DNA of 64,000 bases from a phage, in the sequence record PZ379177.1; one strand, written 5' to 3'. A model generated the notes under the pieces. That model searched no databases, was not told where the DNA came from, and saw nothing but the letters and a program-made list of their open reading frames with translations. Each line of letters begins with the position of its first letter. The stretch's first letter is position 1. Of this stretch, positions 12,430-30,319 are shown in pieces. The position numbers and the translations under genes were made by a program.

Positions 12430-13848
12430 TTATTCCCCTTTCAACCAAGCTTCAAATGCTTCGTCAGTTGCTGCAGAATCCGCAGCGGCCTTTTGTTTTG
12501 CGACTACACGCTGTTTTTGACCGTGTTCAACGCCGCGCAGATAGTTATCCACAACGTCAAACTCAGCACCATCAACGCACTTCAAGCCTAACTTTTTAGC
12601 GCCATATTTCGCTACGGACTTGGAGTCCATAGTTGCATGATCAAAGGCACCAACAACTTTAGACAGGCGCTGGTAGAGGCTATTCTTACGAGCAGAATCA
12701 GCGTAGAAAGCAGCAACTGCTGAATCAGATGCCATTGAGTGTTCCCCTTTTGCTGGACCTGGCGACGCTTTCGCCGCTTTTGTCGGTTTGTCATCTTTTT
12801 CGACCGAAGCCCCCTTTACGTTGCTGTTTTGCAGGCCGCTAACCACATCTTCAGCTTTGTCGCAAGGTGATACATCTTCAGCCTTGACTTCAACTTCTTC
12901 GTCTTTGACTTCGGCTTCAACTTCTTCTTCATCACCTACCGCGCCACCTTTCAGTTTTGCAATAAGTGCTTCGATTTGGCTGATCAGTTGCGGAAGCTCG
13001 CCACCAGCGTGAGATTCAGTTTCAACTTCAAACTTCTCTTCACCTTCTGGAGTCTCTTCAGCTTCTGCTTTGACTTCTGGATCAACCATCACTTCTTCAC
13101 GTTCTTCGGTTGAATCCTTCTCTTCTGCTTTCACTTCAACTTCGTCCTGATGAGCAGCTTCGGTGCTCTCTTCATTCAGAAATTGTTCGAGCGCAGGGAT
13201 CAGTGATTTCAGCTGTTCAACAGCATTATCACGCGCTTTACCTTTTAACGGTTTTGGCATGTCTAAATCCTCGTTGGATGGTGTTACAGTCGTCAAACAA
13301 AGATGGTCAAAGCAACGACCATCCAGCACCCGTGCACCTGGTACTCGACCAACGTCCACGAGAGCAATGTGGTTGCCGCGAAGAGTTGTCTGTACCACTT
13401 CATACGGCTGCCCGTCAAACTCTCCAGACTGTATGATGAATTCACAGTCATAGCCCAAAGACAAGTCAACCTTTCCAGAATCGATGGCTTTCTTCAGACG
13501 ACGGCTAAAAACTTTAAGATCGCCGCGCATCCATGGCTTGTCATAATAAACATTGCCAGTTAGAACGCCATCAACGCCATACTCTTCGGGTGCTGTGTTA
13601 TCCTCATCACCTTCGAATCCAGAAAGCATTTCGTGATTGTCTATGAAAGGGATATTTTTGAATGAATCTATCGCTTCGGGGTCTTTCACCGCTGACTCTG
13701 GGCGATAAACTTTTACGATGCGATTCGGATCACCATCAAGTCCAACCTGACCTGCAGAATAATCAAAAATGCCAAATGACGAAATGGGACAACCCACAAT
13801 CGTCAAGAATCCATTTTTGTCAATTTCGCGTGCCGTTTGCATTCGCAT
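12430..13848 (-). CDS. scaffolding protein with N-terminal prohead-protease-like domain (putative)
   Basis: 472 aa; C-terminal half highly acidic (E/K/V/A low complexity) typical of scaffolds; first gene of leftward structural operon. Confidence 0.45.
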   Translation of the reverse strand: MRMQTAREIDKNGFLTIVGCPISSFGIFDYSAGQVGLDGDPNRIVKVYRPESAVKDPEAIDSFKNIPFIDNHEMLSGFEGDEDNTAPEEYGVDGVLTGNVYYDKPWMRGDLKVFSRRLKKAIDSGKVDLSLGYDCEFIIQSGEFDGQPYEVVQTTLRGNHIALVDVGRVPGARVLDGRCFDHLCLTTVTPSNEDLDMPKPLKGKARDNAVEQLKSLIPALEQFLNEESTEAAHQDEVEVKAEEKDSTEEREEVMVDPEVKAEAEETPEGEEKFEVETESHAGGELPQLISQIEALIAKLKGGAVGDEEEVEAEVKDEEVEVKAEDVSPCDKAEDVVSGLQNSNVKGASVEKDDKPTKAAKASPGPAKGEHSMASDSAVAAFYADSARKNSLYQRLSKVVGAFDHATMDSKSVAKYGAKKLGLKCVDGAEFDVVDNYLRGVEHGQKQRVVAKQKAAADSAATDEAFEAWLKGE

Positions 13849-13958
13849 CCACCCTCAAATAAGTATTGTGTATTATATCTAATGAAAAAAACTTAGGCAA
13901 ACAATAATTATGGTTTGAATATGTATAACAACCGATATAGCCGCGCCTTAATTAGTGT

Positions 13959-14221
13959 GATACGGATGATACGGATAAAATGAGGCGTATTTTTATCCGT
14001 ATCGGTGTATAAGCCGCGCTATCACTGGTGTGCTACGGATGATACGGATGATACGGATACTTTTCATATATAAGAGTTTATAAAAAAAATAAAATTAAAT
14101 TAGATATATAATTTTAAATTAATTTATTTGAATTCCTATAAAGTATCGCGGCAACGCGTATCATCCGTATCATCCGTAAGATTCTTTTGAAAACAACTAC
14201 TTACTTGATACGGATGATACG
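13959..14221. repeat. complex regulatory repeat module copy 1: inverted arrays of 9-bp GATACGGAT units flanking an AT-rich core
   Basis: GATACGGATGATACGGATA at 13959 and 14041, ATCCGTATC in opposite orientation at about 13995 and 14156-14184; core 14060-14150 is >85% AT. Confidence 0.6.
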
Positions 14222-14265
14222 TCATTATACGCGTAAAATCCTGCGGCAATCCATTGCCAGGCGAT

Positions 14266-14403
14266 TCAGTGAATATTAAAAAGCACTCCAGCAACTAAAA
14301 CGCCAATCAGCATCGAGTCGTAAACAGCCCATTTCCAAGAAAGCAAAGAGTTGCAATTAATATTTCGCACTTTAACGTAACGTGACTGAATAATCTTTTG
14401 CAT
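14266..14403 (-). CDS. small membrane protein (45 aa), not in ORF track
   Basis: ATG at 14403 preceded by AGAGGAAG RBS overlapping upstream stop; product MQKIIQSRYVKVRNINCNSLLSWKWAVYDSMLIGVLVAGVLFNIH has a C-terminal hydrophobic helix. Confidence 0.35.
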   Translation of the reverse strand: MQKIIQSRYVKVRNINCNSLLSWKWAVYDSMLIGVLVAGVLFNIH

Positions 14404-21947: not shown

Positions 21948-22143
21948 ATCGTTGGTGCAGTTGGAAGTTGAAACGTCTCGCCTGGGCCAATGCCGCCAAT
22001 TCTGCTGGCCCAATCACCGCTGGTGTTGGGTCGATATGGGATGGTGAGGGCCGTTGGGACTCGCTGTGTGGCACGCGCTTATTCTTTCGCGTAAAATAAT
22101 ATTCGCCCTTCCCACATCGGGAAGGGAATTTAAAGAGGTTATC

Positions 22144-22485
22144 ATGAACAACACTTTATCACAACTTCTAATATGGACCATCGCCGCTATCATCGGCACC
22201 GTTATTATGATGTCAAGTGCAAAGGCCGATACGGATATTTGCGGCAGACTTATGTCTGAGAATGGCGAGATTTATTATGGCAACTCAAAAGGTGATTATA
22301 TATCGACTGAAGTTTGCGCTCAGAAGAAAGCAGAAATGCAAAAGCAGTATCATGAAGATCAATCCATATCTCAGGCCGCGCTGATTGAATTAAGTATATC
22401 AGCCATCATCTTTCTAATCGTTTTTATGCTCATTATTAAACCAAATAATGACAGCAACCGTCATATTCCTCTCAAAAGAAATTAA
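22144..22485 (+). CDS. secreted/membrane protein
   Basis: ORF trimmed to MNNTLSQ start with AAAGAGG RBS; N-terminal signal-like helix and C-terminal hydrophobic helix. Confidence 0.45.
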   Translation: MNNTLSQLLIWTIAAIIGTVIMMSSAKADTDICGRLMSENGEIYYGNSKGDYISTEVCAQKKAEMQKQYHEDQSISQAALIELSISAIIFLIVFMLIIKPNNDSNRHIPLKRN

Positions 22486-25944: not shown

Positions 25945-26602
25945 ATCGTGGTTTTGGTGATTTTGGTGATTTAACCGTGAATCGTGGGTCGCTGTGGCGG
26001 CCCTTTCTTTTGCCTGCCGCGCAGGAGTGTACTGCAAATTTACTGTGGGCACAAAATAGTACGGTACTGTCCAGGACTTTTTCTTTGAAAAGTTAGTGGA
26101 CCAAATGTGTCGTATTTTGATTAGTGTACTGCAAATTCCATCAAGTAGCAAAACGCACCAAAAGACCCATGCCATAAAAACCACACGAACGCAATAATCA
26201 ATCGCCGTTACAGTTTCCAGCGTTACAATTCGAAAGCGAATGATTCGATGCATAATAATATGAAGCATAATGATTCGAAAGCTAATGATTGCGTGTAGGA
26301 TAATATCGGTGGGGATTATTCTAGATGCATGTAATTTCGCATGCGTACTATTTTCGGACGAAGGGTCGGCATATTCCTCGTTTTAGTTCGGAACGAAGGG
26401 AAAGTTTTGCGCCTTTATAAAACAATGACTTACGCGACCCGCCCTAACGGTCCGATATAGGTGTCTATATAAAACAAGGACTTACGCGATGTTCTCCATT
26501 TAACGTAATACCCGTTATGCGAACTAAGGCGCATCTCGACGAAGATTATGCGACGACGAAGGGAAGGATAAAGGAGTTTTCGCGGAGAAGCGCATCGAGA
26601 TA

Positions 26603-26634
26603 GGGACGAAGAAAAGCCGCGACTAAGCGCGGCC
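26603..26634 (-). terminator. rho-independent terminator closing the leftward arm of the atypical cassette
   Basis: minus-strand hairpin GCCGCGCTTAGTCGCGGC followed by TTTTCTTCG, about 20 nt after the 26654 stop. Confidence 0.4.
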
Positions 26635-26653
26635 TATTAGTAACGGAAGGGTA

Positions 26654-26944
26654 TTATAAGGAAACGATTTTAAAGAAAGAGTAACGGCCTTCGCCTTCGG
26701 ATACCGCGAGATATTCGCCGCCGAACTCCGTAGCAAAATAAACCTTGCCTTCGATAGTAACGCGGAAGGTAGAAATATCTTCCTCTTCGAGTTCCGTAAA
26801 TTCGCTAAAATCGATAGGACTATGAAGCTCCTCGATAGTCGCATCTACGTTAAAGAGATAAACGTTTTTAAGTTTTTCGCCAAATACGTTAGAGTTTTCG
26901 GAAGTTTCGGCGCGAGCGTTACGGATAGCGGCTAAAGTAATCAT
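26654..26944 (-). CDS. hypothetical small acidic protein (cassette gene 1)
   Basis: 96 aa; AGGAGATTATTATG initiation context; CG-rich codon usage unlike flanking phage genes. Confidence 0.55.
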   Translation of the reverse strand: MITLAAIRNARAETSENSNVFGEKLKNVYLFNVDATIEELHSPIDFSEFTELEEEDISTFRVTIEGKVYFATEFGGEYLAVSEGEGRYSFFKIVSL

Positions 26945-27045
26945 AATAATCTCCTAGTTGGGTCGGGAGGGTAGCGACCTATTCGCTACCTCATCCCCTC
27001 TCGATATAAAACATTATAGTCTTAGTGTACGAAGAAGTAAAGCAC
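26945..27045 (-). promoter_or_regulatory. sigma70-type promoter plus structured 5' UTR for cassette gene 1
   Basis: minus strand TTTACT-N17-TATAAT, then hairpin GGTAGCGA-ATAGG-TCGCTACC, then AGGAG RBS. Confidence 0.5.
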
Positions 27046-27052
27046 TTTTTCA

Positions 27053-27355
27053 TTATTCTGCGATAAAATATTTATAAGCTTTATCGCCTTCTACGTCGAT
27101 ATACTCGACGATAATTAACGCTTCGCCGCGAGGCGTAACCGTCTCGATAAGGGTAACGGCTTCGTCGTCGGTCTTCGCGAAGCGGATGGCGCTACGTTCG
27201 GCATACTTCATATCGTCGAAGGAAAGGCCGATGAAGGCGACCGCGCGGACCTTAATGGCGCTAGATTCTAGTTCCGCGTTAACGGCGGCGATAAGAGAGC
27301 GAACAGTTAAGCGGTCTTCGTCGTAAGTAAGGATGGAAGAGATTAAAGTAGTCAT
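27053..27355 (-). CDS. hypothetical small acidic protein (cassette gene 2)
   Basis: ORF trimmed to MTTLISS start with GGGAGCTTTATTATG context; same atypical codon style. Confidence 0.55.
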   Translation of the reverse strand: MTTLISSILTYDEDRLTVRSLIAAVNAELESSAIKVRAVAFIGLSFDDMKYAERSAIRFAKTDDEAVTLIETVTPRGEALIIVEYIDVEGDKAYKYFIAE

Positions 27356-27396
27356 AATAAAGCTCCCGATGCTAGTAGAAGAAAGGGCCATCGCCC

Positions 27397-27579
27397 GTCT
27401 CGATATAAACAAGTATACGCGAGTGTACGAAGAAGTAAAGAAAAAAGATAAAATAATTTATCGCATTTTTATCTAAAAAGTGCTTTACTTTTTTCTACAC
27501 TATATTATAATGTACTCATATCGGGACGGGATGAGTTAACGAATAGGTCGTTAACGCCTCTCCCAACTAGGAGTTTATT
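27397..27579. promoter_or_regulatory. divergent promoter pair with central palindromic operator and structured 5' UTR
   Basis: leftward TTTACT-N16-TATACT; rightward TTTACT-N16-TATAAT; between them AGATAAAA-N13-TTTTATCT; rightward UTR hairpin GTTAACGA-ATAGG-TCGTTAAC then AGGAG RBS. Confidence 0.5.
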
Positions 27580-27894
27580 ATGGCTATCGTTACCCGCTTT
27601 ACCCTCGAAAACGCAACCGCCGAAGTCCAGGGCGTTACGCTTACTTACGGCGAAATTCTCGCTAAATTCTCCGGCGTTCGCTTAGGCGAAGAAATTAACG
27701 ACGCGACGGTAATCGAGCAACTCGCTGCTTCTCGCTTAGAGCGCGACGAAAACGGATTCTTCGAAGTCGATGCGGAATTAAATTTATGCGGTAAAACGGC
27801 GTTTATTAACGAGTTCGAACTCGCCGTTTTAGTTAATTACGATAGCAAAGCTTACGCCTTCGCCCTCGAATTAATCGAAGACGACGAAGAGTAA
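27580..27894 (+). CDS. hypothetical small acidic protein (cassette gene 3)
   Basis: 104 aa, acidic C-terminus IEDDEE; AGGAGTTTATTATG context. Confidence 0.6.
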   Translation: MAIVTRFTLENATAEVQGVTLTYGEILAKFSGVRLGEEINDATVIEQLAASRLERDENGFFEVDAELNLCGKTAFINEFELAVLVNYDSKAYAFALELIEDDEE

Positions 27895-27974
27895 GAGAGG
27901 ATTTTTAGAGCGTCGTGCGCGGCGCTTTAATAAAATTCTTTCGCGCCTAGCGCCCTAACAAATAGGAGTTTATT

Positions 27975-28601
27975 ATGGTTAGCTTAAATCGCTTTTCTAC
28001 TAGCGGCGACGTTATCGCAACTAAGACCGCCGACCTCGTTGCATTCTATAATGCAAATTCCGGCTCAAAACCGATTAAGAAGTTTGCGGACCGCCGGACC
28101 GCCGAGACTCGCGTAATCGCGTTAATCGAGTCCTTAAACGCGCTCGATGCGCCGTCCAACGAGTCGCCCATCCCCGACGCGAAGGCGCGCGAGGAAGTGT
28201 CCAGCGATGTAAAAACTCATAAGGCGCGTGCGGTCGTTAAAAAGGCTGAGCCGACCCAGGAAGAACTCGACGCGATGACCGACGAAGAATATGAAGCCTT
28301 CGTTAAGAGCGGTTTAAATGATAGTGCAAATTGCGTAGTGCAAAATGGAACTCCTTCCCATCGCCGTTCGAATAGCGAAGGTATTGCAAAAAGCTGGGAT
28401 AATAAGGAAGTGGCGCAAAAGCGTCTCACCCGTAACGGTGTCATGGTCGAGGGTGTAGGCGAGTTCAAATCGGTCCGCGTAGCGTTCGCTGCGCTGGGAT
28501 TACCGGATAGCAAGCACATTCGCTTCCGCATGAAGCTTAAGGAAGCTGGGCGCTTGAACTTCGAGTTCGGCAACAAGTCCTACACCTTCCAGATTATCTA
28601 A
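27975..28601 (+). CDS. hypothetical protein (cassette gene 4)
   Basis: 208 aa; identical AGGAGTTTATTATG context; contains two ATAGTGCAAAT-type motif copies in its coding sequence. Confidence 0.6.
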   Translation: MVSLNRFSTSGDVIATKTADLVAFYNANSGSKPIKKFADRRTAETRVIALIESLNALDAPSNESPIPDAKAREEVSSDVKTHKARAVVKKAEPTQEELDAMTDEEYEAFVKSGLNDSANCVVQNGTPSHRRSNSEGIAKSWDNKEVAQKRLTRNGVMVEGVGEFKSVRVAFAALGLPDSKHIRFRMKLKEAGRLNFEFGNKSYTFQII

Positions 28602-28607
28602 TAGAAT

Positions 28608-28631
28608 GGCGGCCCTTCGGGGTCGCTTTTC
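28608..28631 (+). terminator. rho-independent terminator closing the rightward arm of the cassette
   Basis: hairpin GGCGGCCC-TTCG-GGGTCGC followed by TTTT, 7 nt after the 28601 stop. Confidence 0.4.
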
Positions 28632-28651
28632 ATAGTGCAAATTGGTGGCTT

Positions 28652-28915
28652 ATGAATACGCTCATTCTCATCGCTACGTTATCCATCGGAAGTGGTCGCA
28701 CCTTATCCCTTTACGACCATAGTGCAAATTGCGCTTATCCTACGCGCGTTGCGGCGATAGTTAATAGTGCAAATAAGATGCTATTCGAGACTTGCTGGCG
28801 GGTCGATAACGAGAAAGGTCGGGTAGTCTTAGGTTATAGTGCAAATCTGCTGGTGGAGTCGTTCGATTGGACGGTTGAAGGTCGTAAATTGTTACGGAAA
28901 GTGACTAAAAGATGA
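28652..28915 (+). CDS. questionable ORF (87 aa) carrying three in-frame copies of the 11-mer
   Basis: weak RBS; motif copies read as HSANCA, NSANKM, YSANLL; may be a repeat region rather than a gene. Confidence 0.25.
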   Translation: MNTLILIATLSIGSGRTLSLYDHSANCAYPTRVAAIVNSANKMLFETCWRVDNEKGRVVLGYSANLLVESFDWTVEGRKLLRKVTKR

Positions 28916-28976
28916 CTTATAATAATACACTTTCTAACGCGTTTATGGTTGTAACCTTCCCCGTCGTATTACCGAT

Positions 28977-29016
28977 GGCCCTAGAAGTGGAGAAAATGTG
29001 TTCTAGGGCCGTTTTA
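28977..29016 (+). terminator. rho-independent terminator
   Basis: perfect 10-bp inverted repeat GGCCCTAGAA...TTCTAGGGCC followed by GTTTTA. Confidence 0.5.
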
Positions 29017-29029
29017 TAGTGCAAATTGG

Positions 29030-29503
29030 CTAGTGGCGGGAGAATTGCTCACCTTCTTTGGCCGCCTCTCCAAAATCCTTGTAGAAATCGTCCATGGAAC
29101 GGCCCATTTTACTATTGCCGTTTTCATCAATCATCGTGATGCCGTAGATGATATTCAGTTCACGAATAGCATTAAGTTTGGCTGACGCCGCGACTTCTGG
29201 ATCACGCACAAGCTTGACCAAATTGTGAATTGCACCTTTTACGCTCCACAAATCCTTGAGTGGCATCTCTTCCATACGCTTTTTGAAGCGCATCTTGTAG
29301 TATGGATTGCGTTGCGCGCAAAGGATTCGCTGGCCAGTGTAGTTATCCGTTGCAACTTCCATTCCAAATACTAGTGCAAAAGCTGCGCGCATGTCATGGC
29401 CCTGAATAACAAGGTCAATGAACTCATCGAATAAAGCCTGATTGTGCTCTGCAAATCGCGGGTCTTCAAAGTCTTCAGGCATCGCTACATAATCTTGACT
29501 CAT
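29030..29503 (-). CDS. hypothetical protein (speculatively terminase small subunit-like)
   Basis: 157 aa with normal phage codon style; no clear SD; both candidate ATGs lie inside copies of the 11-mer (read as TTTGCACTATG on the coding strand). Confidence 0.45.
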   Translation of the reverse strand: MSQDYVAMPEDFEDPRFAEHNQALFDEFIDLVIQGHDMRAAFALVFGMEVATDNYTGQRILCAQRNPYYKMRFKKRMEEMPLKDLWSVKGAIHNLVKLVRDPEVAASAKLNAIRELNIIYGITMIDENGNSKMGRSMDDFYKDFGEAAKEGEQFSRH

Positions 29504-29654
29504 AGTGCAAAATCCCATAGTGCAAATTAATAGTGTGAATTATACAATGGATGGACATTATATTCAAGTGCAGATTGATGTTCATTATGGCTATAAACGT
29601 ACACAAATCATAGTGCTGAATGGATAACGGACCGTGGTGCGTGGTGTACTGTTT

Positions 29655-30004
29655 GATACGGATAAAAGAAATCCATCCCTTTCGCCGCTTGTTATGCAAA
29701 TCAATGACTTAGCCGCTGCTGGCTGGTTTAAGCGTATCATGACGTATCATCCGTATTGCCGCAAGTCTTTGTTTTTACTTATATCTTACGGATAATACGT
29801 TAAATATATAAATTAACATAAGTATGAGGATGTAGAAAAAAAATTAATTTAAATTAATTCAAAATGGAGTTAATTAATTTTTGAAATAATTCTGGTTACA
29901 ATAAGGAAAAATGGCGTATCATCCGTATCATCCGTAAGATTCAGTGTACAAATCCAGGCGCGGCGCACCCTAGCGCCATGATACGGATAAAAACCTATCC
30001 GTAA
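29655..30004. repeat. complex regulatory repeat module copy 2 (GATACGGAT units flanking an AT-rich core)
   Basis: 29-bp block GCGTATCATCCGTATCATCCGTAAGATTC identical to 14156-14184; GATACGGATAAAA at 29655 and 29980; AT-rich core 29800-29900. Confidence 0.6.
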
Positions 30005-30319
30005 GAGTGTACGCTTCAATTAAAGAATCCAGGCGCGGCGCGGCTTTCACCACCACACACCACGGTTCACTCTCCAAAATCCGCACACTAAATTCCAAAA
30101 TCCAATGCTCATACTCCAAAAATAAATCCAAATTTCCATTTTATTTATTATTTTCATCCACAATATACTAAATTCTATCCGTATTAACCACGACTCAACC
30201 CACCACGATTCATGCCAATCACTTCAAAATTTCCATCGAAAACGACAAAAGGCCGCGTAAAGCGACCAATTGCACACATTCCATTATTCAAAACACGTAA
30301 ACGAGTGTTCTTTTATCCA

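What the first reader, a model, noticed from the sequence alone, without database searches (positions are those of the whole stretch)
13959..14221. Complex GATACGGAT repeat module present twice, about 16 kb apart, each upstream of a leftward gene block
Copy 1 (13959-14221) and copy 2 (29655-30004) share the same design: tandem 9-bp GATACGGAT units on one side, the reverse orientation ATCCGTATC on the other, and a core that is more than 85% AT. A 29-bp block GCGTATCATCCGTATCATCCGTAAGATTC is identical in both. Copy 1 lies upstream of the structural operon beginning at 13848; copy 2 lies upstream of the gene beginning at 29503. Inverted iterons around an AT-rich unwinding-type core match either operators on strong regulated promoters or replication origins. 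Two copies could mean two origins or co-regulated control regions.
Basis: seen in the sequence. Interest (0 to 1): 0.65.

Follow-up and report, generated by a model that had tools for sequence, protein, structure and literature searches.

The report
Paired packaging-site modules in a Wifcevirus
The repeat module is real and occurs twice: one copy sits just upstream of the small-terminase gene and contains the exact point where the phage genome is cut for packaging, and the other is a strongly conserved sister copy upstream of the head genes whose role is still open.

Summary
GATACGGAT-type 9-mers cluster almost exclusively in two long non-coding gaps of this Wifcevirus genome. In each gap, inverted arms flank an AT-rich core, and an identical 29-bp block is present in both.

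Copy 2 (29655-30004) is not simply an operator or an origin. It lies about 360 bp upstream of the small-terminase gene (29030-29503, minus strand; PDB 7uxe, E=7e-34). The experimentally inferred left genome end of WFC, WFH and Mansfield maps by sequence to window 29865|29866, inside the AT-rich core and within an invariant 15-mer. The Ro157lw and SP13 records open at the same offset from terS.

The same design recurs in Kylevirus, Myosmarvirus and Pbunavirus: a terminus module upstream of terS plus a paralogous module upstream of the head protease. Each genus uses different repeat words, but the two modules within a genome share them.

Copy 1 (13959-14221) evolves about three times slower than third-codon positions next door. 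It lacks the cut-site 15-mer, and no terminus is reported there.

Best reading: a terminase recognition and cleavage (pac-type) module plus a non-cleaved paralog read by the same factor, probably TerS. Origin and promoter-control readings remain live rivals, especially for copy 1.

The parts
13849..14265 (-). Module 1 (M1): the whole non-coding gap between a 45-aa ORF (14266-14403, minus strand) and the head maturation protease
   Evidence: ORF map and Mansfield annotation. In 5 Wifcevirus genomes, 9 of 335 columns vary from the distal arm to the ATG, against 38 of 473 third-codon positions of the protease gene.
14034..14058 (+). M1 protease-side arm: 2.7 tandem 9-mers (TACGGATGA units)
   Evidence: D1, D2, I1.
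14059..14156 (.). M1 AT-rich core (83% AT overall; 91% over 14062-14140)
   Evidence: It is homologous to the M2 core but lacks the AACTCC cut signature.
14156..14184 (+). M1 distal arm within the 29-bp block that is identical in both modules (inverted 9-mers at 14157-14178)
13958..14003 (.). M1 outer units: tandem GATACGGAT x2, plus a 13-bp palindrome GATACGGATAAAA / TTTTATCCGTATC
   Evidence: I8.
14206..14221 (+). M1 outer unit TGATACGGATGATACG on the distal side
   Evidence: D2.
13872..13900 (-). Proximal sigma70-like promoter (TTGCCT-17-TATAAT) for the protease-scaffold-capsid block, lying outside the repeat array
   Evidence: It is invariant in the genus. The equivalent mapped start site in phage 14-1 is P014.
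12430..13848 (-). Head maturation protease gene downstream of M1
   Evidence: Pfam DUF2213, E=5e-35; annotations.
29504..30319 (-). Module 2 (M2): the whole non-coding gap upstream of terS
   Evidence: genus alignment.
29030..29503 (-). Small terminase subunit (TerS) gene
   Evidence: PDB 7uxe 'Small terminase', E=7.3e-34, residues 3-147; Mansfield annotation.
29861..29875 (-). Invariant 15-mer AATTAACTCC|ATTTT spanning the left genome terminus. The cut falls between 29866 and 29865.
   Evidence: Position 1 of WFC, WFH and Mansfield maps here. Invariant in 7 genomes. Unique in the window.
29800..29913 (.). M2 AT-rich core (83% AT)
29914..29942 (+). M2 distal arm (the 29-bp block). It lies outside the terminal repeat, and its first 20 nt are invariant in the genus.
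29743..29799 (.). M2 terS-side arms (CGTATCATCCGTA at 29743-29755 and TACGGATAATACG at 29787-29799), inside the terminal repeat
29539..29584 (-). Two overlapping sigma70-like promoters proximal to terS
   Evidence: The 14-1 equivalent is P041.
26161..29865 (.). Inferred direct terminal repeat (about 3.7 kb) of this phage. Its right boundary is set by homology to WFH and Mansfield; WFC's boundary maps 81 bp further out, at 26079|26080.
   Evidence: Papers PMC6563267, PMC6753283 and PMC6454146.

Best explanation
The two modules are paralogous cis-acting recognition sites for the phage's DNA-packaging machinery.

Module 2, immediately upstream of terS, is the packaging initiation site. Arrays of 9-bp words on both sides of an AT-rich core position the terminase, which cuts within the invariant sequence AATTAACTCC|ATTTT. 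This creates the left genome end, which is also the left boundary of the 3.7-kb direct terminal repeat.

Module 1, upstream of the head protease-scaffold-capsid genes, keeps the arms and the AT-rich core but not the cut sequence. It is most likely a second, non-cleaved binding site for the same factor, probably the TerS ring. It may partner with module 2 by looping or synapsis, or it may couple packaging to head-gene expression.

Shown: the repeat architecture, the terminus position, the terS adjacency, paralogy in four genera, and purifying selection on M1.

Inferred: that the 9-mers are bound by TerS, and what module 1 does.
For: (1) The gene at 29030-29503 (minus strand) is TerS (annotation).

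(2) Left termini set by the depositors for WFC and WFH (PMC6563267) and predicted by PhageTerm for Mansfield (PMC6753283) map by sequence to window 29865|29866. That is 4-9 bp from the centre between the inverted arms. The Ro157lw (PhageTerm, PMC6454146) and SP13 records put terS at 360-361, the same offset from the record start.

(3) The 15-mer spanning the cut and the adjacent arm are invariant in 7 genomes, although the DNA outside the terminal repeat is hypervariable.

(4) The same layout occurs elsewhere. In Pantoea phage Kyle the terminus is 356 bp upstream of terS, inside an AT-rich core. In Serratia phage MTx the PhageTerm terminus is 376 bp upstream of terS. In Pbunavirus, Ab27's fixed read end (PMC4482731) coincides with Pa193 position 1, inside the module.

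(5) In each of the four genera the gap upstream of the head protease is a paralog of the terminus module. Identity is 68-71% over 165-307 aligned columns, with scores of 67-127 against shuffle maxima of 36 or less. The repeat words differ between genera but are shared within a genome.

(6) M1 is under purifying selection: 2.7% variable columns against 8.0% at neighbouring third-codon positions (P=0.001) and 20% in the adjacent 84 bp of the same gap (P=2e-7).

(7) Repeat clusters flanking a central cut, located in or next to terS, are the classical anatomy of P1 pac, SPP1 pacL/pacC/pacR and lambda cosB/cosN (my own knowledge). T4 provides a precedent for a second TerS-recognised site and a twin-ring synapsis model (PMC10893049).
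Against: No binding data exist. The homologous E217 TerS showed no appreciable DNA binding in vitro (review PMC9611059); which DNA was tested is unknown to me.

Module 1 is not a reported terminus and lacks the cut 15-mer, so a packaging role for it rests on paralogy alone.

PhageTerm on the Pbunavirus Banzai found no significant termini (PMC12390725).

In phage 14-1 an experimentally mapped start site (P040) lies inside the terS-proximal module, so at least part of that module works as a promoter.

Iterons around an AT-rich core fit a replication origin equally well. In Pbunavirus and MTx the module lies downstream of the primase/primase-helicase gene: directly in Pa193 and after one small ORF in MTx.

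The design is not evident in Xanthomonas phage XcP1.
Confidence: 0.42

Rival explanations
1. Both modules are replication origins. The 9-bp words are iterons bound by a phage initiator such as the D5/P4-type primase-helicase, the AT-rich core is the unwinding element, and a terminase cut site happens to be embedded in the terS-proximal origin.
For: The anatomy is inverted and tandem short repeats flanking an 83-91% AT core. The repeat words are genus-specific, as expected for initiator-iteron pairs. In Pa193 and MTx the module follows the primase/primase-helicase gene. Two-site precedents exist: P4 ori plus crr, SPP1 oriL/oriR, and SaPI iterons flanking an AT-rich region (my own knowledge). 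M1 has strong cruciform potential (z = -7.0).
Against: In the Wifcevirus module, where the arms are defined, the terminus falls near the centre between them. In Kyle, MTx and Pbunavirus it falls inside the part of the module that is paralogous to M1. This recurrence across four diverged genera is hard to explain as a coincidental overlap. In Wifcevirus the primase-helicase gene is about 8.5 kb from M2. GC skew follows gene orientation and shows no shift at M1. No replication data exist.
Confidence: 0.25
2. The modules are transcription-control regions. The repeats are binding sites for a phage activator or repressor, or are promoter elements themselves. They time expression of two late units, terS and the protease-scaffold-capsid operon. 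The terminase cut lies there only because pac overlaps the terS control region.
For: Both modules precede late-function genes and are followed by conserved sigma70-like promoters. In 14-1, start site P040 sits directly downstream of the tandem repeats of the terS-proximal module and its transcript covers the terS homolog. The element TATACTTTA at the 14-1 P040 -10 region recurs after the tandem arm in WFH M2, and as GATACTTTA in window M1. Earlier authors guessed that PB1-like intergenic motifs are recognition sites for a phage sigma factor (PMC3008698).
Against: No start site was mapped inside the head-gene module of 14-1; only the proximal P014 was found. In the window the repeat words are centred about 100-130 bp upstream of the predicted starts, which is atypical for operators. 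The only promoter-like matches inside the modules are weak (9 of 12) and point in inconsistent directions. This reading does not explain why the cut is centred in the module.
Confidence: 0.2
3. The modules are selfish or neutral repeats: a small mobile inverted-repeat element or a recombination relic with no function.
For: Inverted terminal arms flank an AT-rich interior. A metagenomic contig breaks inside the shared block.
Against: The positions are fixed in four genera. There is purifying selection. Exactly two copies exist per unique genome. The contig break is at the 29-bp shared repeat, which is an assembly artefact.
Confidence: 0.03

Closest known systems
pac sites of P1 and SPP1, and lambda cosB/cosN (terminase recognition sites)
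   Same: Clusters of short repeated words lie on both sides of a central cleavage point. The site is in or next to the small-terminase gene. The intervening DNA is AT-rich and probably bent. The cut defines a genome end.
   Different: Here the product is a 3.7-kb direct terminal repeat with a precise left end, not a cohesive end or a permuted headful series. The units are 9 bp in head-to-tail tandem. A full paralog of the site exists 16 kb away. No TerS binding has been demonstrated.
T4 gene 16 pac site plus its homolog in gene 19 (TerS twin-ring synapsis model)
   Same: There are two homologous sites in one genome, one of them at terS. This is a proposed way for a TerS ring pair to bring two sites together before cutting (PMC10893049). 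E217 TerS has a C-terminal helix proposed to link rings (PMC9611059).
   Different: The T4 sites are short, GC-rich, lie inside coding sequence and are about 3 kb apart. Here the sites are non-coding modules of at least about 160 bp, lie 16-20 kb apart, and are conserved as a pair across four genera.
Iteron origins with an AT-rich unwinding element (SaPI ori, P4 ori/crr, HSV oriS)
   Same: Short repeats in direct and inverted orientation flank an AT-rich core. The repeat words are lineage-specific. Two cis sites occur per genome, as with P4 ori plus crr.
   Different: One copy carries the virion DNA terminus at its centre and abuts terS. No initiator gene is adjacent in Wifcevirus. There is no replication evidence.
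Intergenic AT-rich boxes and conserved motifs noted in PB1-like phages (JG024, PMC3008698)
   Same: These are probably the same non-coding regions in Pbunavirus genomes.
   Different: They were reported only as motifs of unknown function, with a guess of sigma-factor recognition. They were not linked to the terminus, to terS, or to each other as a paralogous pair.

Membership tests
Terminase recognition/cleavage (pac/cos-type) site | Contains the physical end of virion DNA | tested here: met
   Met for module 2. Position 1 of WFC, WFH and Mansfield maps to window 29865|29866, and the Ro157lw and SP13 records open at the same offset from terS. The equivalent holds in Kyle, MTx and Ab27/Pa193. 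Not met for module 1: no terminus is reported there and the cut 15-mer is absent.
Terminase recognition/cleavage (pac/cos-type) site | Located in or next to the small-terminase gene | tested here: met
   The M2 cut lies about 360 bp upstream of terS. M1 is instead upstream of the head protease.
Terminase recognition/cleavage (pac/cos-type) site | Specifically bound by TerS and required in cis for packaging | not testable with these tools
   This needs EMSA or footprinting and a plasmid-packaging assay. E217 TerS showed no appreciable DNA binding in vitro (PMC9611059).
Iteron-type replication origin | Repeated short words adjacent to an AT-rich unwinding element | tested here: met
   This is a formal resemblance only.
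Iteron-type replication origin | Replication starts there, or an initiator binds there | not testable with these tools
   No marker-frequency or binding data are available. GC skew is uninformative because it tracks gene orientation.
Iteron-type replication origin | Adjacent to its initiator gene | tested here: inconclusive
   It lies downstream of the primase/primase-helicase gene in Pa193 (directly) and MTx (after one small ORF). In Wifcevirus it is about 8.5 kb away. M1 is never adjacent.
Operator-controlled sigma70 promoter | Repeats overlap or closely abut the -35/-10 region or the start site | tested here: inconclusive
   In the window the good promoters (10 of 12 matches) lie outside the arrays. 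In 14-1, start site P040 directly follows the tandem repeats of the terS-side module, but none is mapped in the head-side module.
T4-type paired TerS sites (pac plus pseudo-pac synapsis) | Two homologous sites per genome, one of them at terS | tested here: met
   paralogy in four genera.
T4-type paired TerS sites (pac plus pseudo-pac synapsis) | TerS-dependent pairing or recombination between the sites | not testable with these tools
   WFH-type M2 carries an M1-like flank (CGCGTYGCCGCKATACTTTATA). This hints at exchange between the two sites but does not prove it.
Mobile inverted-repeat element | Presence/absence polymorphism or variable location | tested here: not met
   There are two fixed positions in four genera and exactly two loci per genome.
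Known structured RNA | Match to an Rfam family | tested here: not met
   The whole window gives 0 matches at gathering threshold.

The most novel reading that the evidence does not exclude
PB1-like myoviruses (Wifcevirus, Kylevirus, Myosmarvirus, Pbunavirus) use an obligatory two-site packaging signal. A cleavable pac module at terS and a non-cleavable paralog in the head-gene cluster would be bridged by TerS rings through looping or synapsis. The bridge would license the initiating cut and perhaps set up formation of the long terminal repeat, with the repeat words co-evolving with TerS in each genus.
Probability: 0.18. Interest if true: 0.8.

Novelty: new variant of a known kind. Interest (0 to 1): 0.6.

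Why it matters
Pbunaviruses are among the Pseudomonas phages most used for personalised phage therapy (BASEL preprint), and Wifcevirus is a relative of them. Their packaging strategy has been reported inconsistently: defined ends, headful packaging or terminal repeats. The one solved TerS of the group (E217) showed no DNA binding in vitro.

This analysis gives a concrete, testable candidate for the DNA these terminases recognise. It offers arms with genus-specific words, an invariant cut 15-mer in Wifcevirus, and homologous sites in E217/Pa193-type phages.

It also shows that the site has a conserved and strongly constrained twin upstream of the head genes. No packaging model I know of predicts such a twin, apart from the T4 synapsis idea.

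On the practical side, the left end at 29865|29866 and the modules must be preserved when these genomes are assembled or rebooted synthetically.

Tried and rejected
(1) An exact-pattern scan of viral contigs with the A-rich MTx word ACGAAAAGTAAAAAC hit at least 120 contigs, all those listed unrelated, and was useless. BLAST of the module against annotated records replaced it.

(2) An IMG/VR contig appeared to end inside M1. It ends exactly in the 29-bp block shared by M1 and M2, so this is an assembly break and not a physical terminus.

(3) GC skew as an origin indicator simply follows gene orientation.

(4) Cruciform potential is strong for M1 (z = -7.0) but not for M2 (z = -1.6), so it is not a shared defining property.

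(5) Rfam gave no known RNA.

(6) I looked for a fifth lineage. Xanthomonas phage XcP1 has only a short GC-rich gap before terS and no shared words.

(7) The E217 terminase paper (PMC10026623) is not held, so I could not check which DNA was used in its binding assays.

(8) The right boundary of the terminal repeat carries no GATACGGAT words. WFC's boundary lies midway between two 15-nt repeats, but WFH and Mansfield agree on a different point 81 bp away, so I treat the midpoint as coincidence.

(9) The conserved GCGGCA box is 2.5-fold over-represented across the whole window, so I did not build the explanation on it.

Full report
**Identity of the window.** The window is a Wifcevirus, a group of roughly 68-72 kb E. 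coli myoviruses related to Pseudomonas PB1-like phages. At the first locus it is 99.8% identical to WFH and 94.9-99.7% identical to the other top-listed members. It is in reverse orientation relative to the WFC, WFH and Mansfield records.

- GATACGGAT with up to 1 mismatch gives 23 matches against 9.9 expected, and no shuffle of 100 reaches that.
- The longer word TACGGATGATACG gives 12 matches against 0.86 expected, 10 of them in the two modules.
- In the complete WFC genome this word occurs only at the two homologous loci, apart from one 2-mismatch match outside them.
- Seventeen of 37 ACGGAT hexamers fall in the two gaps (1,233 bp), where 0.39 are expected.
- Copy 1 has perfect 22-nt inverted arms (14034-14055 and 14157-14178) around a 101-nt core. 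Copy 2 has 17-nt arms at 94% complementarity (29783-29799 and 29924-29940).
- The 29-bp block is exact at 14156 and 29914 and occurs nowhere else.
- Core AT content is 91% (14062-14140) and 83% (29800-29913).

**Setting of each copy.**
- Copy 1 fills a 417-bp gap inside the leftward head-gene array. It lies between a 45-aa ORF and the head maturation protease (12430-13848; Pfam DUF2213, E=5e-35).
- Copy 2 lies in an 816-bp gap upstream of a 157-aa gene (29030-29503).
- That protein matches the solved small terminase 7uxe (phage E217) at E=7.3e-34 over residues 3-147. It is annotated as TerS in Mansfield.
- Each gap has a terminator-like hairpin at its upstream end.
- Each gap also has a good sigma70-like promoter next to the downstream gene, outside the repeat arrays (TTGCCT-17-TATAAT at 13900-13872; TTGAAT-17-TATAAT at 29567-29539).

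**The decisive finding: copy 2 holds the genome terminus.**
- WFC and WFH were deposited as linear genomes with terminal repeats of about 3.7 kb (PMC6563267).
- Mansfield was opened at a terminal-repeat boundary predicted by PhageTerm (PMC6753283; repeat_region feature).
- Ro157lw has a PhageTerm long, non-permuted terminal repeat (PMC6454146).
- All these records, and SP13, start 359-360 bp upstream of terS.
- Reading across the internal junction gives ...AATTAACTCC|ATTTT(A/G)AA... in WFC, WFH and Mansfield.
- On the window this is 29865|29866, inside the AT-rich core and 4-9 bp from the midpoint between the inverted arms.
- In a 7-genome alignment three things are invariant: the 15-mer spanning the cut, the adjacent 20-nt arm (ATCTTACGGATGATACGGAT), and most of the repeat-side half.
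- By contrast, the DNA just outside the terminal repeat is hypervariable: 396 of 491 columns vary, in three sequence types.
- The 15-mer is unique in the window.
- The right boundary of the terminal repeat maps to 26160|26161 for WFH and Mansfield, and to 26079|26080 for WFC. It has no GATACGGAT words.

**The design is older than the genus.**
- Pantoea phage Kyle (TerS 43% identical) has a 3.6-kb terminal repeat. Its record starts 356 bp upstream of terS, inside an AT-rich core (...ATAAATTC|ACTTAAAAAAAATA...). It has a 515-bp gap upstream of its head protease homolog with a near-copy of that core.
- Serratia phage MTx (TerS 36% identical, E=7e-31) has a PhageTerm repeat of 3,566 bp and opens 376 bp upstream of terS. 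Its protease-upstream gap matches a second place in the same record.
- In Pbunavirus, Essoh et al. placed position 1 of Ab27 at a single fixed read termination (PMC4482731). Ab27 and Pa193 open at the same nucleotide. That nucleotide lies inside a long non-coding module about 600 bp upstream of terS. A 511-bp gap upstream of the head protease is its paralog.
- Pairwise local alignments of the two modules within each genome give 68-71% identity over 165-307 columns. Scores are 67-127, against shuffle means of about 22 and maxima of 36 or less. The cut lies inside the aligned part.
- The repeat words differ by genus: GATACGGAT; GGTTATT and ATATCCGAA; ACGAAAAGT-type; GGTAATTTGG. Within a genome, both modules share the same words.
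- So the pair evolves in concert, which implies the same trans-acting factor or factors read both.
- Xanthomonas phage XcP1 does not show the design.

- Across five Wifcevirus genomes only 9 of 335 columns vary from its distal arm to the protease ATG.
- That compares with 38 of 473 third-codon positions in the adjacent protease gene (P=0.001) and 17 of 84 columns in the rest of the same gap (P=2e-7).
- It is therefore functional DNA.
- It lacks the AACTCC cut signature, and no study reports a terminus there.
- A metagenomic contig that ends in it stops exactly in the 29-bp shared block, which is an assembly artefact.

**Transcription evidence from a relative.** ONT-cappable-seq of Pbunavirus 14-1 (PMC10914365; tables in bioRxiv 10.1101/2023.10.13.562163) gave these results:
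- In the head-side gap, only the proximal sigma70 start P014 (13257) was mapped.
- In the terS-side gap, two starts were mapped. P041 is proximal. P040 (59399) has an upstream sequence that is the tandem GTAATTTGG repeats plus AT-rich DNA of the module, and its transcript covers the terS homolog.
- So part of the terS-side module doubles as a promoter in that genus, but the head-side module shows no internal start.

**Interpretation.**
- The best-supported mechanism is a pac/cos-type terminase site at copy 2. Repeat arrays on both sides position the enzyme, and the cut is made in the central invariant sequence next to terS. This matches the anatomy of P1 pac, SPP1 pac and lambda cos (my own knowledge).
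- Copy 1 is then a non-cleaved paralog read by the same factor.
- TerS is the obvious candidate for that factor, but this is inference.
- The T4 precedent of a second TerS-recognised site and a twin-ring synapsis model (PMC10893049) shows how a two-site system could work. So does the proposed ring-ring contact of E217 TerS (PMC9611059).
- Against this reading: E217 TerS did not bind DNA appreciably in vitro. Banzai showed no PhageTerm peaks. The iteron-plus-AT-core form also fits an origin, and in Pa193 and MTx the module follows the primase/primase-helicase gene.
- I therefore give the packaging-pair reading 0.42, two origins 0.25, transcription control 0.20, and a non-functional element 0.03.

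**Novelty.**
- Earlier papers noted AT-rich boxes and conserved motifs of unclear function in PB1-like intergenic regions (PMC3008698).
- In the searched library I found no description of the terminus lying in a repeat module upstream of terS.
- I also found no description of its conserved paralog upstream of the head genes.
- It is a new variant of a known kind of element, with one component (copy 1) that current packaging models do not predict.

Noticed in passing
All eight modules; in the window at 14148, 14243 and 29757: The hexamer GCGGCA/TGCCGC is the only GC-rich 6-mer present in both modules of all four genera (19 copies in 5.1 kb). Eighteen of the 19 point away from the core: TGCCGC upstream and GCGGCA downstream (binomial P=8e-5, with the rule chosen post hoc). 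In Pbunavirus the box sits in the loops of small hairpins (AAGCCT-CGCGGCAGT-AGGCTT). The hexamer is also 2.5-fold over-represented window-wide (103 against 41.6 expected), so its significance is uncertain. It could be a genus-independent recognition box.
   Followed up: partly
window 25950-26650: The right boundary of the terminal repeat maps to 26160|26161 by homology to WFH and Mansfield, but to 26079|26080 for WFC. The region is non-coding and full of other repeats: AGTGTACTGCAAATT x2 at 26026 and 26123, an ATGATTCGAAAGC family at 26219-26306, and CT(T/A)TATAAAACAA(T/G)GACTTACGCGA x2 at 26413 and 26465. None of them resembles the left-end words.
   Followed up: partly
window 29943-30319 (outside the terminal repeat, distal to the cut): This stretch is hypervariable within the genus: three sequence types, with 396 of 491 alignment columns variable. 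The DNA on the other side of the cut is conserved. WFH-type genomes carry an M1-like flank here (CGCGTCGCCGCTATACTTTATAC), which suggests exchange between the two modules.
   Followed up: partly
window 13968-14003: A 13-bp perfect palindrome GATACGGATAAAA / TTTTATCCGTATC with a 10-nt spacer is built from the same word and sits between the module and the proximal promoter. A weaker analogue occurs at 29982-30003 in module 2.
   Followed up: no
window 22228-22236: The one exact GATACGGAT outside the modules lies inside an ORF (22054-22485, plus strand). It is an isolated single unit, most likely a chance copy.
   Followed up: yes
WFH M2 (L008 1245-1253); window M1 about 14139-14147 (minus strand); 14-1 P040: The element TATACTTTA lies at the -10 region of the mapped 14-1 start site P040. 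It also follows the tandem arm in WFH-type M2, and occurs as GATACTTTA in window M1. This may be a conserved promoter core or a coincidence.
   Followed up: partly
window 14266-14403 (minus strand), and equivalents in Kyle, Pa193 and 14-1: A very small ORF (45-50 aa) immediately precedes the head-side module in all four of these phages: KYLE_31/32, Pa193 gp39 and 14-1 gp21. A terminator-like hairpin (14304-14282) overlaps its 3' end in the window. I did not test whether these ORFs are homologous.
   Followed up: no
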